Below are positions 36,001-45,000 of a DNA stretch of 64,000 nt, piece by piece (position 1 is the first letter of the stretch; every line of letters begins with the position of its first letter). Made by a program: the position numbers. This DNA comes from Roseibacillus sp. (GTDB lineage: Bacteria > Verrucomicrobiota > Verrucomicrobiia > Verrucomicrobiales > Akkermansiaceae): the NCBI GenBank assembly GCA_051251855.1, contig JBPOGI010000001.1, forward strand, positions 512,001 through 576,000, in the 5' to 3' direction.

Positions 36001-39000
36001 GCGAACTTGCGGGGCGGTAAGAACTCACCTTTTGAGGGCGGTTCTCATGTGCCTGCCTTTTGGCAATGGAAAGGGGTTTTGGATGAAGGAGTAGATATCG
36101 AGGCGCTCACCGCTCATATTGACCTCTATCCTACGTTTATAGAACTCGCGGGGGCGGAGCTTTCCGAGGAAATTCAGGAGATGGATGGCCGTTCTCTGCT
36201 TCCGCTGTTAGAAGACCCAAAGGCGGAGTGGGCGGACCGAGAACTCTTCTTTCATTGCGGGCGTTGGAATTCAGGCAAGCGCGAGGCGGCCAAGTTTGCC
36301 AAGTGTGCGGTGCGCACTGAGCAGTGGCGTTTGGTGAACAATAAGATGCTCTTTGATATCTCCAAGGACCCGAGTGAGACCACGGACATTTTTGCTGAGA
36401 ATCCTGAGGTAGTGGCGAAGCTTCAGAAGTCCTATGACGCTTGGTGGGAGTCCACCCTTCCGTTGATGGTGAATGAAGGGTTACCTAGGGTGGCCGCTGA
36501 AGACCAATCGCTTTCGATTCGTTACTACAAGCAGCTCGAGGAAAAGGGGATTCCGGACTATGAGCCTCATCTAGAAACTCCCTGAGACAGAAAATTAGAT
36601 GAAGATAATTCTCACGGTAATCTTGATCTTGGCCGCTTTTTGCAGCTGTCATGGAGCTTCACCACGCGTTGATTTTTATCTGTCACCCAACGGCTCGGAT
36701 GATTGGTCGGGGACACGTGCTGAACCAAATCAACAGAGGACTGACGGACCCTTCGCTACTTTGGAGCGCGCTCGCGATGCCGTGAGGGTTTTGAAGAGGA
36801 GCAAAAGGAGAGACCTTCGGGTGCAAGTGAGAGGAGGGAACTATTCTCTGGAAAAGACAGTTGTCTTTGAACTCCAAGACTCGGGACGTGGAGAGGCAAA
36901 AGTCATCTACGAAGCATATCCTAACGAGAAGCCCATCTTTGATTCAGGACAGCCCATCACAAACTGGCGAAAGGTTACCACTACAATTCCGGGATTGCCT
37001 GAAAACGCTCAAGGGAAGGTCTGGGAAGCCGACGTTTCGAAGCAGTTTTTTACGCTGTATGATGAAGAGGGAATGCTACCGCGGGCGCGGTCGAAGGGAT
37101 TCATTCCGCTCAAAGGAAGCACTCGGGACCGTGTTATTTTTCCAAAGGGGATGTTGAAGGGGTGGGCCAACCTCAAGGACGTGGAAATTGTGGTGCGTCC
37201 GAACCATGCTTGGATCGTAAATATTCTTCCTGTCGTTTCAGTGGATGAAGAGAAGCAGCGAGCTGAATTGTCTGTGGAGTCTACCTATGTGATGTCTGAA
37301 CTTCATTTCTTAAAAGGGACAGAGTCTTGCTGGGTTGAAAACGTGGTGGAGGCCATTGATGAGCCTGGGGAGTGGGCTCTCAATACGGATGCGGGTAAAG
37401 TCTACCTATGGCCGCGTAATGATTCACCTCCAGTTCGAGTCTCTGCCCCTCGTCTGATGGAGTATATCAGGGTGGAAGGTCGTATCGACAAAGAGGGACC
37501 GAAGGATGCTCCCGTGAAAAACCTCTCCTTCCGAGGACTGACTTTCATCAATGGTGAACGCTATTCCATGAGAGCTGACGATGCTGGGCTTCAGCACGAT
37601 TGGGACTTTCACGACAAGGGCAATGCTTTGCTTCGCCTACGAGGAACGGAGAACTGCGCTGTGGAGAAGTGCCACTTTGCTCATAGCGGGGGCGGCGCTA
37701 TTCGAGTGGATCTACACGGACAGAAGAACATGATTTCGGGCAATGTTATCGAGCACATGGGCGGTACGGGAATTCTGCTTTGTGGTTATGGTCCTGGAAC
37801 GAAGGATGTGAATCACGATAATGTCGTATACAATAATCATATTCACCATCCGGGGCAGATTTATGCTCACTCGCCGGGTATTATGATTTGGCAGAGTGGT
37901 AAGAATCGAGTGGCGAATAATCTGGTGCATCATACTCCTTACACCGCGATTATTCTTTCAGGATGTGTCACCGAATTTTTCAAAAAAGATAAGGGGCGGG
38001 AAGTCGGCAGAACTATTCGGAGGCATGAGGTTCACAAGCTTCCAAAGGGCTATGGTTTGGAGGATGTGCGGCCCTACTTGCACACCAAAAGTAACCTTAT
38101 TGAGCTGAACGAGATTCATCATGCCATGGAGAAACTAGGCGATGGCAACGGGATCTATATTCGTGGCGCAGGGGCGGGGAACGTGATTCGGAAAAACTAC
38201 ATTCATCATCTTGTTGCCCCCATGATTATGCAGGCCGCAATCCGAACTGATGGCGGGCAGAAGGATACTTTGATTGCGGAGAATCTCATCTACAAATGCA
38301 CTTCTCAGGGAATTTTGATAAAGCTCAATAATCGTTGCGAGAACAACATCGTTGCGGACATCATCGCTCCACCTAGAGGTTACTATCTTTCGCTGCGCGA
38401 AGGGCCCATGGATGGCGCGACGATCCAGCGGAACATTCTTTACTCTTCGGGGACTGAAGTGACCTTTATGGATGAGTTGAACGCTCGGAAAAAGAATCCC
38501 TCGGAAGATCGACGGGGACGGGAAATCGCGCGGGCAAAGGACGCAGATACGGATTATAACCTCTATTTTTGCGCAGCTGATCCGACACTAAGTGATGAAT
38601 GGTTGCGTTCCCAAGTGGCTTTGGGGATGGACGAACATAGCTTGGCGACCGATCCGCTTTTTGTGGATGCGGACAATGGTGACTTTCGGTTTCAACCCGA
38701 TTCACCCGCACACAAGCTTGGGATCGTGCCAATTGACCTCACCCAAATCGGCTTAAGGGAGGAATGAACTGAGTTCGCATGAGAGGTAAGAAAAATAGAG
38801 TAAGAGGAGTAGATCGGGACCGGGCCGGATTTTCGCTCATCGTAACGGTGACGGTGATGATTCTCCTCAGCCTGATCGCAGTCGGTTTACTTTCACTTTC
38901 GACCACGGTTTTGCGCAGCGCTACAAGTGACCGAGATAGGCAGCTGGCTCGTAGTAATGCGCGTTTGGCATTGATGTTGGCGATGGGTGAACTCCAAAAA

Positions 39001-42000: not shown

Positions 42001-45000
42001 TCAACTGGAACGGTTATGGCGCAAGCTTGGTGCGAGGCCGTGGTGCAACGTCGGGCAGATTATCTTGACCCAAACGCTGATGAGGCCACGGTTCTCCCTA
42101 GTGAGGAGACCTTGAATTCGAAGGTCAATCAGCGCTTTGGTCGTCGTTTTTCCATGGTCTCCTTCCGATGGTTAGCTCCAGGTGAGGTCTAAACCTATTC
42201 AATGATAAAATGATAACTTTGAAGCTTCTATGGTCGATCGGATTGCTCTCCGTGCTCTTCTTCTCGGTGGACTCGGCACAAGGAGAACGGGTGGCGCGCA
42301 TCCTCTATTATGGTGCGCCGAAGGACGCTCCCGAGACGGCCTTCGTTCATCAGAAGGGCTCGAAAGTGCAGGAGGTGCCTCTCCCTCGAAACAATTTTTC
42401 GGAGTCCTTCGAGCTGGGCGCGGGTGCACTCCGGCTAGCCTTTTTTCCGTCTGAATCACTCGAAGAGATCGAGAATCCGGAAGCGGCTCCCTTCTTGGAT
42501 ATCCCCGAAGGTTGGGGGAAAGTGCTTATTCTTGTTTTTGAAGATCCGGATAACACGTTGCTACCAATCCGCTTGAAAGCCATCAATGCCAACGACAACC
42601 AGTTTGGCCCTGGGGACTTGTATTTCGTCAATTTTTCTAAGCGGACGATATTTGGGATGGTGGGGGACGAGAAGATGAATCTAAAACCAGAGGGGACGAC
42701 TATTGTATCCAGTCCTCGCAAAGCGAGAGGGGATTACAACGTGCAGTTGGACTCAGTGAAGGGAGAGGAAAAAGGCTCCCGGCGCTGGTTGCTGAGGCAA
42801 ACTTGGCGCCATCAACCAAGTGTGAGGAGAGTAGTTTTTGCAATACCTCTGCCTGCTCCTCGTAACATTAAACTCTATTCGGCACCCATTCGGAATTTCT
42901 GAGCGAAGTGCCTCCCAATTTACCGATATGAAGAAGTCAAAAATTCTGCTGTTCACCCTATTCTTGATGCCCTGTTTCCTCTTTGCGGAGCAGGAAGCGC
43001 CTGTTTTGGATCCACCTGTAAAAAGGGAGAGAGGCAAAAAGGTGCAGTCTTACCTCAAGACAACAGGGGAGCAGAAGAGGGACCTTGTGTATAAAAAGAT
43101 TGGGCGACGTGAGTTGCAGCTGGACCTTTATTATCCTACCGCGAAACGTGAAGAGTCGTCGCCGGTCATTATCTATACTCACGGAGGAGGTTGGGCAGCG
43201 GGAAGTCGGGCCGGAGTGACGAAGGGTTTGTTTTCCAAGGTTTTCAGGGAACTTCTAGGAGAGGGCTTCTGCGTGGCCTCTGTTGATTATCGTCTTTACA
43301 ATAAAGGGGGGACGGTGGCGATGCGTGACTGTGTGATCGACTCCAAGGATGCGGTGCGCTACCTCGCTAAGAATGCGGAGTCGCTGGGTCTTGACTCGGA
43401 ACGCTTCTACGTGATGGGCGATTCGGCAGGGGGGCAAATTGCTCAAATGCTTTTACTGACTCCGCCAGAAAGTTTGACAGGAGACTTGGAACTTGCGGAT
43501 GCTCAATATCAAATTTTAGGTGGAGTGTCTTGGTATGGACCCTGTGACTTTGAGGATCAGAGTTTGTTTAATCACGATGATCGCCCGGATTTTAAGGACC
43601 GTTTTGGTCCAAGGATTGTGGTGTCAGAAGTGACTCCTGAAGAGAGATTGAAGCTCTATCGCGAGATGAGTCCTATCAATTTCCTGAAGAAGGACAGCCC
43701 TCCCTTACTCATGATTCAAGGGGATAGCGACACCACCATTCCGGTGAAGCACGCGCACTACATGAAGAAAAGGGCTCTAGAGCTGAAGGCACCCGTGGAG
43801 GTTCTCATCGTTAAAAATTCAGGCCACAATTGGCGGAAGGTGGGGGCGGAGATTGAACCGTCGAGGGAGGATATTCTTGCGGAGACTGTTCGATTCTTTG
43901 TGGGGCATGAGAAGAGTTCGTCGAAAGATTGAGCCTTCTTTCCCAGTTGAGATTGGGACACTTCCTCATGAATTTTTATCGTAAATCTTTAAGGCTGTTT
44001 TTTACTCTGGGCCTTCTGTTTATCATGGGCTCAACGGCACAGTCCAAGGAGCAACCCAACGTGATTTTGATCATGACGGATGATCAGGGCTACGGTGATG
44101 TGGGGATCCATGGGAATCCGATTTTGAAGACCCCTGAGCTGGACAAGCTACACGGGGAGTCGGTTCGCTTTACGGACTTCCACGTCAGCCCCTTTTGCAC
44201 GCCGACGAGAGCAGCCTTGATGACGGGGCGTTATCCGGCTCGAACGGGGGCCTATCGGACGAGTTCGGGGCGCACTATGATGCATACCGATGAGCGTACG
44301 ATTGCGAATGTTTTTGCGGATAATGGATATCTTACTGGGATGTTCGGAAAGTGGCACTTAGGAGACAACGCTCCGCACCGGCCTCAGGATCGAGGATTTC
44401 AAGATGTGGTTTGGCATCGCTGTGGCGGGATTGGGCAGTCTTCTGATTACTGGGGGAATGATTACTTTGATGATACCTATGAGCGGGTGCGCCCGGGGAG
44501 TCAGGAAGGCTCTTTCGAAAAGTTTGAGGGTTACTGCACGGATGTCTTTTTTAGGGAAGCGATTCGTTTCGTGGAGGAGAGTAAGGATAAGCCCTTTTTC
44601 CTCTATCTACCACTGAACGCGCCGCATGGTCCTTACTTTGTGGCACCGGAGTGGTCTGAGCCGTATAAGAAGACGTCAGAAGGGAAGCCCTTTGCGAACT
44701 TCTTCGGGATGATTGCCAACTTTGATCATAACGTGGGTTTGCTGCGCCAGCGATTGGAGGCGTTGGAATTGGCTGAGGATACCATCTTGATTTTTATGAC
44801 CGATAACGGCACGTCCGCTGGAGCCAAGTTCAAGGGCTTGGACTCGGAGGCGGTGCTGGGATTCAACGCGGGGATGCGCGGGAAGAAATCTTCTCATTAT
44901 GAAGGCGGGCATCGGGTTCCTTTTTTCATTCATTGGCCAAAGGGGGGCTTGGTGGGGGGCCGTGATGTGCTCTCGATGAGCGCTCATATCGATGTCTTGC

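What a model noticed while it worked through the whole genome (the two positions that open the first line are those of the whole stretch)
38779..42902. Nine copies of an undescribed two-gene module: giant PilX/GspK-type pseudopilin plus secreted tandem transthyretin-fold [...]
Nine unannotated 1137-1239-aa proteins (g00470, 1028, 1214, 1222, 2340, 2376, 2826, 3133, 3400) have a prepilin N-terminus, conserved ends and a variable middle, and each is followed by a 225-257-aa signal-peptide protein. Six of nine sit in or beside sulfatase, esterase or glycoside hydrolase loci, suggesting interchangeable pilus-tip adhesins for glycans.
Evidence so far: Paralogue clustering and gene order. No Pfam row; only the first 60 residues weakly match Verru_Chthon_A or GspK (18 bits against a cut of 332). 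At least 1431 homologues; the named ones among the best 120 are Verrucomicrobia. Model pLDDT 87, pTM 0.89 with a 59-residue N-terminal helix. Partner model pLDDT 90 matches the PepT2 extracellular domain, Z 12.8, rmsd 3.2, 178 aligned. The pair recurs in G193; in G054 two copies form a 2965-bp perfect inverted repeat.
(Added by a program. Inside this text positions count along the whole contig: contig position 512,001 is position 1 of the stretch shown here. "Call 12" and the like, gene names such as g00115 and contig names such as C1 are that model's own, and its searches are not shown. The text may have been shortened before it was handed on; [...] marks where a part breaks off. The agent that wrote the report below was given it as the finding of a first reader that could run no searches.)

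Follow-up and report, generated by a model that had tools for sequence, protein, structure and literature searches.

The report
Nine swappable giant pilus tips
This marine bacterium encodes nine different oversized cap proteins for a retractable surface fibre, each with a small secreted partner, that appear to share one set of fibre-starter proteins encoded elsewhere; they probably give the cell interchangeable tips for gripping different materials, but neither the fibre location nor what the tips bind has been shown.

Summary
The two-gene module is real, with nine copies in the genome. The 1137-aa protein models (pLDDT 85) as a GspK/PilK-type tip pilin: no Glu+5, its own C-terminal strand, and a large insert containing a variable beta-sandwich. 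It fails the Verru_Chthon_A test. New here: the genome holds one free-standing H-I-J minor-pilin trio with no K gene. This trio is usually single-copy and co-occurs with the giant K across the family. In several other Verrucomicrobiota it is joined to K in one operon. Three complete Akkermansia genomes have one PilC platform, PilT/PilU and this trio as the only H-I-J set found, and several Akkermansia genomes carry K copies differing almost only in the beta-sandwich. Best reading: interchangeable self-capping tips of one retractile type IV pilus. The glycan link is weak: 7 of 9 modules lie within 10 kb of a sulfatase here, but only 10 of 47 loci elsewhere lie within 5 kb. Partner fold, K-partner binding and ligands were not tested. 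The scan noted this family and the Akkermansia cassettes before, on other DNA. New variant of a known kind; interest 0.68.

The parts
38779..42192 (+). Giant K-type (GspK/PilK-like) minor pilin, 1137 aa; one of nine paralogues
   Evidence: model; structural matches to XcpX/GspK/ComZ
38779..39006 (+). Class III (prepilin) leader ending at Gly17, then helix 18-76; position +5 is Val, not Glu
   Evidence: sequence, motif scan, model
39988..40677 (+). Variable beta-sandwich, aa 404-633: candidate specificity or exposed domain
   Evidence: all-strand region in model; aa 446-633 is the least conserved segment, 0.29; the segment that differs between Akkermansia copies
41383..41685 (+). Conserved FNVNSTS...AW and RGPFLSLSEF motifs, read as GspK alpha-domain equivalents (motif likeness recalled)
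   Evidence: invariant columns; 212-228 residues aligned to GspK/XcpX
42142..42174 (+). Terminal beta-strand (aa 1122-1132), inferred to complete the pilin sheet in cis
   Evidence: strand in model; aa 1041-1137 most conserved segment, 0.67; mechanism from PMC13533445 passages
42210..42902 (+). Partner, 230 aa, signal peptide judged by eye; unnamed family of at least 4125 clusters at 50% identity
   Evidence: no Pfam or PDB sequence match
36599..38767 (+). Context: beta-helix protein with weak GH141-insert hit, 11 nt upstream, preceded by two sulfatases
42838..50112 (+). Context: BD-FAE esterase and four sulfatases on the same strand directly downstream

Best explanation
The nine large proteins are alternative cap (K) subunits for one retractile type IV pilus. 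Steps: (1) Prepilin peptidase cuts the leader after Gly17; the N-terminal helix and the protein's own last strand close a GspK-like pilin domain around a large insert (sequence and model shown, processing inferred; about 0.9). (2) Whichever K is expressed primes the fibre with the single free-standing H-I-J trio at C7:135143-137535, on the PilB-PilB-PilC-pilin-pilin locus at C10:197-203 kb, with PilT/PilU for retraction and probably a MUL2-type secretin (inferred from gene inventory; about 0.75 for the trio, lower for the secretin). (3) The beta-sandwich at aa 404-633 is the exposed, swappable head (about 0.65). (4) It grips extracellular polymers or surfaces, most likely glycans or glycoproteins, which retraction pulls to the cell (about 0.45). 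(5) The partner is a cognate folding or escort subunit for the constant body of K (about 0.5; no binding evidence).
For: K identity: VIA-align against 48,161 chains puts XcpX (Z 9.3, rmsd 3.2, 212 aligned), GspK (Z 9.2, rmsd 3.0, 228), ComZ (Z 7.1, rmsd 3.4, 110) and S. sanguinis PilA (Z 5.8, rmsd 3.3, 113) on top; all nine lack Glu+5. Missing partners found: a D/B/C (H/I/J-like) trio with no K gene beside it. The trio's J gene is in 56 of 60 family genomes, mostly once; K in 57 of 60; partner in 51 of 60 with 1-17 copies; three genomes lack all three. In 51 further genomes J matches in 33 of 34 with K and 5 of 17 without, only 1 of those 5 full length. Joined operons: pilin-pilin-H-I-J-K-partner in G116, similar in G170, G072, G161, G197; K-partner upstream of the trio in G065; K-partner beside a second J in G051. 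The first upstream pilin of these operons best matches the two C10 pilins of this genome. Three complete Akkermansia genomes have one PilC, two secretins, seven GFxxxE pilins including the trio, and two PilT-family ATPases over cut-off; ordinary GspK was not found in G060. In G140 and G050, K copies are 94-100% identical over the C-terminal half and 30-72% over window aa 404-623; G137's partial copies show the same dip. Sulfatase within 10 kb for 7 of 9 modules against 25.6% for random places, p 0.0016, and 24 of 79 and 69 of 221 for control gene sets. Within genera partner count follows sulfatase count, rho 0.56, 0.50 after genome size.
Against: No direct evidence of pilus location, expression or binding. 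At 5 kb only 3 of 9 modules are near a sulfatase (14% expected, p 0.13); five thresholds were tried and two modules lie 6 kb apart. In other genomes 10 of 47 detached-K loci, 0 of 6 whole operons and 0 of 14 Akkermansia loci have a sulfatase within 5 kb, some with short flanks. Across 60 genomes partner count against sulfatase count has partial rho 0.20 after size and -0.05 among the 42 sulfatase-rich ones. The variable domain is net acidic in all nine, which does not favour direct binding of sulfated sugars, and matches no lectin clearly (best Z 3.6; barely tested in a whole-protein search). G004 (93% complete) has K and partner but no J; G086 has the trio but no K found. The three genomes lacking K, partner and J keep PilC and an Amuc_1098-type secretin. 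This genome has three PilC/GspF genes and several secretins, so machine assignment here rests on relatives. 14 of 65 K genes in fetched loci have no partner directly downstream. Z 9 on a 1137-residue model is modest.
Confidence: 0.5

Rival explanations
1. The giant K subunits cap a short periplasmic piston (type II secretion style), and the variable head, helped by the partner, selects which folded enzymes or surface proteins are exported.
For: The closest folds are T2SS GspK/XcpX, with far more aligned residues than the T4P pilins. C10 ATPases score near both GspE and PilB, and the C10 pilins hit GspG weakly. Several modules sit among secreted enzymes.
Against: This genome has a separate T2SS with its own 321-aa GspK. 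Akkermansia has PilT/PilU with a single platform. Cassettes differing in one domain fit an exposed protein better than a periplasmic one.
Confidence: 0.2
2. They are pilus tips with one shared job (priming and general adhesion); the variety is driven by escape from phages, predators or host antibodies, not by different ligands.
For: A whole gene faces a headless copy across long inverted repeats in G060, G050 and G140, with a differing middle in G140, as in antigenic-variation systems. The glycan context is weak outside this genome.
Against: In this genome the nine copies are old (25-48% identity), scattered, intact, and no long repeat joins K copies in the eight other module loci checked; several have orthologues at 51-68% in other genomes, which suggests kept functions. 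Within-genus correlation with sulfatases.
Confidence: 0.15
3. They act without a fibre, as membrane-anchored periplasmic or surface binding proteins that only use the prepilin helix as anchor (as recalled for archaeal sugar-binding proteins with class III signals).
For: No H-I-J gene lies beside any of the nine; the head is very large.
Against: Co-occurrence and operon linkage with the trio; the terminal strand region is the best conserved part.
Confidence: 0.08
4. They are DNA-binding competence tips like Thermus ComZ.
For: ComZ is the third structural match; retraction ATPases are present.
Against: The match covers only the pilin core (110 residues); the variable domain is acidic; nine variants are not needed for DNA. 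Competence genes were not searched.
Confidence: 0.04

Closest known systems
T2SS GspK/XcpX in the GspI-GspJ-GspK tip (PDB 3CI0, 5VTM; NF037980)
   Same: Prepilin helix without Glu+5, pilin sheet closed by its own C-terminal strand, 212-228 residues superpose; H-I-J-K order in whole operons.
   Different: About 3.5 times longer; 9 bits against a cut-off of 130; multi-copy and detached from H-I-J; has a partner gene; linked to a machine with PilT.
Self-capping large K-type pilins: Thermus ComZ, Caulobacter CpaL, cyanobacterial beta-solenoid PilX (PMC6561018 abstract; PMC13533445 passages; PMC13759059 abstract)
   Same: Large domain built into a K-type pilin, tip position, terminal strand in cis; in cyanobacteria alternative priming sets share one machine.
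   Different: The insert is modelled as beta-sandwich plus helical parts, not a beta-solenoid. In cyanobacteria there are two whole minor-pilin sets; here one trio faces nine or more K heads.
Verru_Chthon cassette proteins A-D (TIGR02600, 02598, 02599, 02596)
   Same: Verrucomicrobial giant prepilin protein of 1100-1400 aa with H/I/J-like companions; N-terminal 77 columns align (Prob 96%); UniRef gives this label to some homologues.
   Different: 18 bits against 332; no profile match past the helix; true members (G176) mostly sit with their own pilin genes, and no partner-family gene was found in the seven G176 loci examined.
Akkermansia MUL2 pilus-like system (Amuc_1098-1102; PMC13174399 whole text)
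   Same: This genome has the syntenic five-gene operon at C9:326430-333763 with an Amuc_1098-family secretin over cut-off.
   Different: That paper names no tip or minor-pilin complex; assigning these K proteins to that secretin is my inference.
AlgF / DUF4397 / PepT extracellular domain (partner only)
   Same: Nearest named Atlas clusters are AlgF/DUF4397 at 0.76, a lead only; similar size and signal peptide.
   Different: No Pfam match in 38 members; DUF4397 model does not ring in this genome; fold not modelled here.

Membership tests
K-type minor pilin (GspK/PilK/PilX superfamily) | Class III signal: Gly before a hydrophobic helix | tested here: met
   G|F motif in all nine; helix 18-76; a prepilin peptidase gene is in the genome
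K-type minor pilin (GspK/PilK/PilX superfamily) | No Glu at +5 (PMC13533445) | tested here: met
   Val in eight, Ala in one
K-type minor pilin (GspK/PilK/PilX superfamily) | Pilin fold with terminal strand in cis | tested here: met
   On a predicted model only: alignments to GspK/XcpX run from aa 46-54 to aa 1134-1137, Z 9.2-9.3
K-type minor pilin (GspK/PilK/PilX superfamily) | Encoded with H, I, J genes | tested here: inconclusive
   Not in this genome; yes in G116, G170, G072, G161, G197 and nearby in G065
K-type minor pilin (GspK/PilK/PilX superfamily) | Binds the I-J pair at the fibre tip | not tested
   No complex with the trio was modelled; needs experiment
GspK equivalog NF037980 | Score over 130 bits | tested here: not met
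   9 bits
Verru_Chthon cassette protein A (TIGR02600) | Score over 332.3 bits | tested here: not met
   18.1 bits, aa 17-75 only; best 24 bits anywhere in this genome
Verru_Chthon cassette protein A (TIGR02600) | Homology over the length of the protein | tested here: not met
   hhalign of 146 against 7 sequences aligns 77 N-terminal columns only
Verru_Chthon cassette protein A (TIGR02600) | Repeats as a whole four-gene cassette (definition recalled) | tested here: not met
   No pilin gene beside any of the nine
Retractile type IVa pilus system | PilB, PilC, PilT, secretin and peptidase present | tested here: met
   presence only, not linkage to these K proteins
Retractile type IVa pilus system | PilY1 tip adhesin | tested here: inconclusive
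   PF05567 found in 0 of 8 genomes but also in no control genome
AlgF/DUF4397 (partner) | Pfam match over cut-off | tested here: not met
   0 of 38 members; no ring in this genome
AlgF/DUF4397/PepT ECD fold (partner) | Tandem beta-sandwich fold | not tested
   Folding cap spent on the large protein; Atlas 0.76 is a lead only

The most novel reading that the evidence does not exclude
Verrucomicrobiota capture complex glycans with one retractile pilus whose cap comes from a library: a single housekeeping H-I-J trio accepts many self-capping K heads, each escorted by its own partner and each with a different ligand domain. In Akkermansia the same head is varied by cassette exchange. These heads would be the missing substrate-recognition step of the MUL2 machinery for mucin and fucoidan uptake, playing the role SusD-like proteins play in Bacteroidota.
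Probability: 0.3. Interest if true: 0.88.

Novelty: new variant of a known kind. Interest (0 to 1): 0.68.

Why it matters
How Akkermansia and its marine relatives recognise and import mucin and fucoidan is open. The papers read here tie it to pilus-like MUL genes but name no tip or receptor. This family supplies a candidate tip, the shared trio whose loss should disable all tips at once, and a defined 230-residue domain to test for ligands. One trio serving nine or more K subunits was not found in my ten literature searches; known cases duplicate whole minor-pilin sets.

Tried and rejected
Folding with only the nine paralogues failed (pLDDT 36.6). Foldseek found nothing at E<=0.001; profile searches of PDB sequences found nothing for K or partner; the Atlas gave only unnamed clusters for aa 395-720; no lectin fold was listed for the insert, which was barely tested. 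Promoter and terminator scans of 33000-50400 matched shuffle levels. PEP-CTERM genes are not enriched near the modules. The tenth giant pilin at C6:725712 and its 225-aa follower are not detectably related to the nine or their partners (Prob 0.3 and 0.2). K-partner identity correlation (rho 0.52, 51 pairs) was not used as binding evidence because co-inheritance explains it. Co-loss could not tie K to one secretin or platform. PilY1 search was uninformative. Literature: 'Verru_Chthon', 'Verru Chthon cassette', Verrucomicrobia+pseudopilin+GspK and Akkermansia+inversion+inverted repeats+phase variation+pilin gave 0 papers; six other searches listed no title or abstract start describing this family. 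Davey 2023 and Hughes 2025 were not held; they and bioRxiv supplements (closed) may name or test these genes.
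Full report
OBSERVATION. The window holds a 1137-aa ORF at 38779-42192 and, 17 nt later, a 230-aa ORF at 42210-42902, in a same-strand run of sulfatase, beta-helix and esterase genes. The genome (4.96 Mb, 13 contigs, 95% complete) has nine paralogues of the large protein and no further full-length hit. They share 25-48% identity. Every one is followed by a member of one partner family; one has two, and an eleventh partner stands alone. Neither protein has a Pfam match; the large one matches TIGR02600 over its first helix only. It has 1438 homologues among 7999 scored candidates; the partner profile finds 4125 clusters at 50% identity. 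Named close relatives are Roseibacillus and other Verrucomicrobiota.

WHAT THE LARGE PROTEIN IS. All nine have a Gly|Phe prepilin site and no Glu at +5. A 64-sequence model reaches pLDDT 85.3, pTM 0.88; a 9-sequence one failed. Against 48,161 chains the best matches are XcpX (Z 9.3, rmsd 3.2, 212 aligned), GspK (Z 9.2, rmsd 3.0, 228), ComZ (Z 7.1) and S. sanguinis PilA (Z 5.8), spanning the first helix to the last strand. Foldseek found nothing significant. PMC13533445 (passages) states that K subunits lack Glu+5, sit at the tip, and need a terminal strand given in cis by GspK, CpaL and the Thermus protein. Here the last 97 residues are the best conserved segment (0.67) and aa 446-633 the worst (0.29). 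I read it as a self-capping K subunit with a large insert. It is not a Verru_Chthon A member.

THE MISSING PARTS. A motif scan of all ORFs shows three H-I-J sets in the genome: the T2SS operon with its own GspK, a complete cassette at C6 with an unrelated 1106-aa K, and a trio at C7:135143-137535 with no K beside it. The trio's J gene is in 56 of 60 family genomes, as one locus except in G051. K is in 57 of 60 and the partner in 51 of 60, up to 17 copies. G003, G021 (one genus, 90% complete) and G014 (95%) lack all three; G004 (93%) lacks only J. In a phylum sample K is in 42 of 151 genomes, this one included. Among 51 of those genomes J matches in 33 of 34 with K and 5 of 17 without, one full length. 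Kin are not independent, so I give no p value. Only 2 of 60 fetched J loci have a K gene within 1.5 kb, four with short flanks, but larger fetches show whole operons: pilin-pilin-H-I-J-K-partner in G116, close variants in G170, G072, G161, G197, and K-partner upstream of the trio in G065. The first leading pilin of these operons matches best the two pilins behind PilB-PilB-PilC at C10 in this genome; the second gave no hit. So the nine modules look like the detached, multiplied end of one pilin operon.

WHICH MACHINE. Three complete genomes of genus g2 (Akkermansia by cluster names) have one PilC, two secretins, two PilB-like and two PilT-family ATPases, and seven GFxxxE pilins including the trio. 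That points to a retractile type IV pilus. This genome has the same parts and a MUL2-like operon, but also two more platforms, so the assignment here is by analogy. Gene positions in G060 run roughly in step with published tags (hand arithmetic), which would make the trio include Amuc_1523-24, listed as needed for colonisation in bioRxiv 2025.12.30.696933 (passages, citing Davey 2023, which I could not read). This mapping is unverified.

THE VARIABLE HEAD. In G060, G050 and G140 a whole K gene faces a headless copy across long inverted repeats. The arms are near identical in G060 and G050. In G140, and between the two loci of G050, copies are 94-100% identical over the C-terminal half but 30-72% over window aa 404-623, the modelled beta-sandwich. 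Flipping was not shown. No long repeat joins K copies in the eight other module loci of this genome that were checked. An earlier scan note (e1-2933795) had proposed the cassette swap; I saw the repeats before reading it and measured the domain boundaries after.

GLYCANS. The genome has about 101 sulfatases. Seven of nine modules lie within 10 kb of one (random 25.6%, p 0.0016; control sets 24 of 79 and 69 of 221), but only three within 5 kb (p 0.13); five thresholds were tried. Elsewhere 10 of 47 detached loci have one within 5 kb. Across 60 genomes partner count and sulfatase candidate count correlate (rho 0.53) mostly through genome size (partial 0.20), yet within genera rho is 0.56. The head is acidic in all nine and matches no lectin clearly. 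PMC13174399 (whole text, plus a term search of two supplements) and PMC12418764 (passages) link pilus-like MUL genes to glycan uptake in this family but do not mention these proteins. The glycan role stays a plausible inference.

THE PARTNER. It follows 51 of 65 distinct K genes in fetched loci; nine of the 14 exceptions are in genus g2. The 435-455-aa short K proteins without the insert have none in their loci, which hints that it serves the insert. In G050 and G140 one partner was found in the fetched loci beside K copies with different heads, so it probably does not read the variable domain. Its fold and binding were not tested here; the nearest named Atlas clusters are AlgF/DUF4397 at 0.76.

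VERDICT. A real, widespread, uncharacterised system: a known kind of tip complex in a new arrangement of one trio and many heads. Confidence in the full mechanism 0.5; interest 0.68. Earlier scan notes described the same family on other DNA; they were leads, not evidence.

Noticed in passing
L009:7677-13694 (G000 C6:723676-729693): Complete H-I-J-K cassette with a different 1106-aa giant K and a different 225-aa secreted follower; neither is detectably related to the nine modules; the follower has only 20 close homologues.
   Followed up: partly
G000 C1:1561101-1561820: Eleventh partner-family gene with no K gene, behind a 1261-aa sulfatase fusion in a sulfatase cluster.
   Followed up: no
L004:7179-8660: The C10 module has two partner genes in tandem; double partners also occur in G002, G110 and G121.
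   Followed up: no
L052:8377-15771; L054:7587-14731; L137:7648-15144; L138:6840-11000: Akkermansia K gene facing a headless copy across long inverted repeats; in L138 a 322-aa head and a headless body lie on opposite strands; the partner follows one arm only.
   Followed up: partly
L052:8361-12518 and 12713-15880: In G060 both arms read past the usual K stop into a different tail; real variant or assembly error not decided.
   Followed up: no
G060 C1:198964-201061; G050 C1:2176527-2178621; G140 C1:229274-231366: The two PilT-family genes lie about 7-10 kb from the K cassette locus in all three related genomes.
   Followed up: no
L149:9169-10536; L150:6461-7768: Short 435-455-aa members of the K family without the large insert, in whole operons: natural minimal versions useful for structure work.
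   Followed up: partly
G000 C9:326430-333763 and C1:934725-937280: MUL2-like five-gene operon ending in an Amuc_1098-family secretin, and a second such secretin elsewhere. A homologue of the gene behind the operon lies near the pilin operon in G072, G170, G161, G197 and G061.
   Followed up: partly
L012 (G000 C8:47-61 kb): A further type IV pilus-like locus with a PilT-like ATPase, secretin, PilB, PilC and two short pilins.
   Followed up: no
L006:4862-7114; L008:3271-4314: One module is followed by selB, another lies near a rhodanese-domain gene; probably chance insertion sites.
   Followed up: no
window 3-2987 and 54725-57325: 994-aa and 866-aa ORFs with no or only a faint Pfam hit; the second follows a PEP-CTERM gene.
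   Followed up: no
window 4315-8285: Flavin oxidoreductase, type III polyketide synthase and Ser/Thr kinase in a row.
   Followed up: no
window 26078-33451: PEP-CTERM gene and two large passenger-associated-repeat proteins, one with an esterase domain, beside a two-component pair at the start of the sulfatase run.
   Followed up: no
L057:4048-15535: Tandem duplicate of the whole K-partner module at 84% DNA identity in G023: recent module duplication.
   Followed up: no
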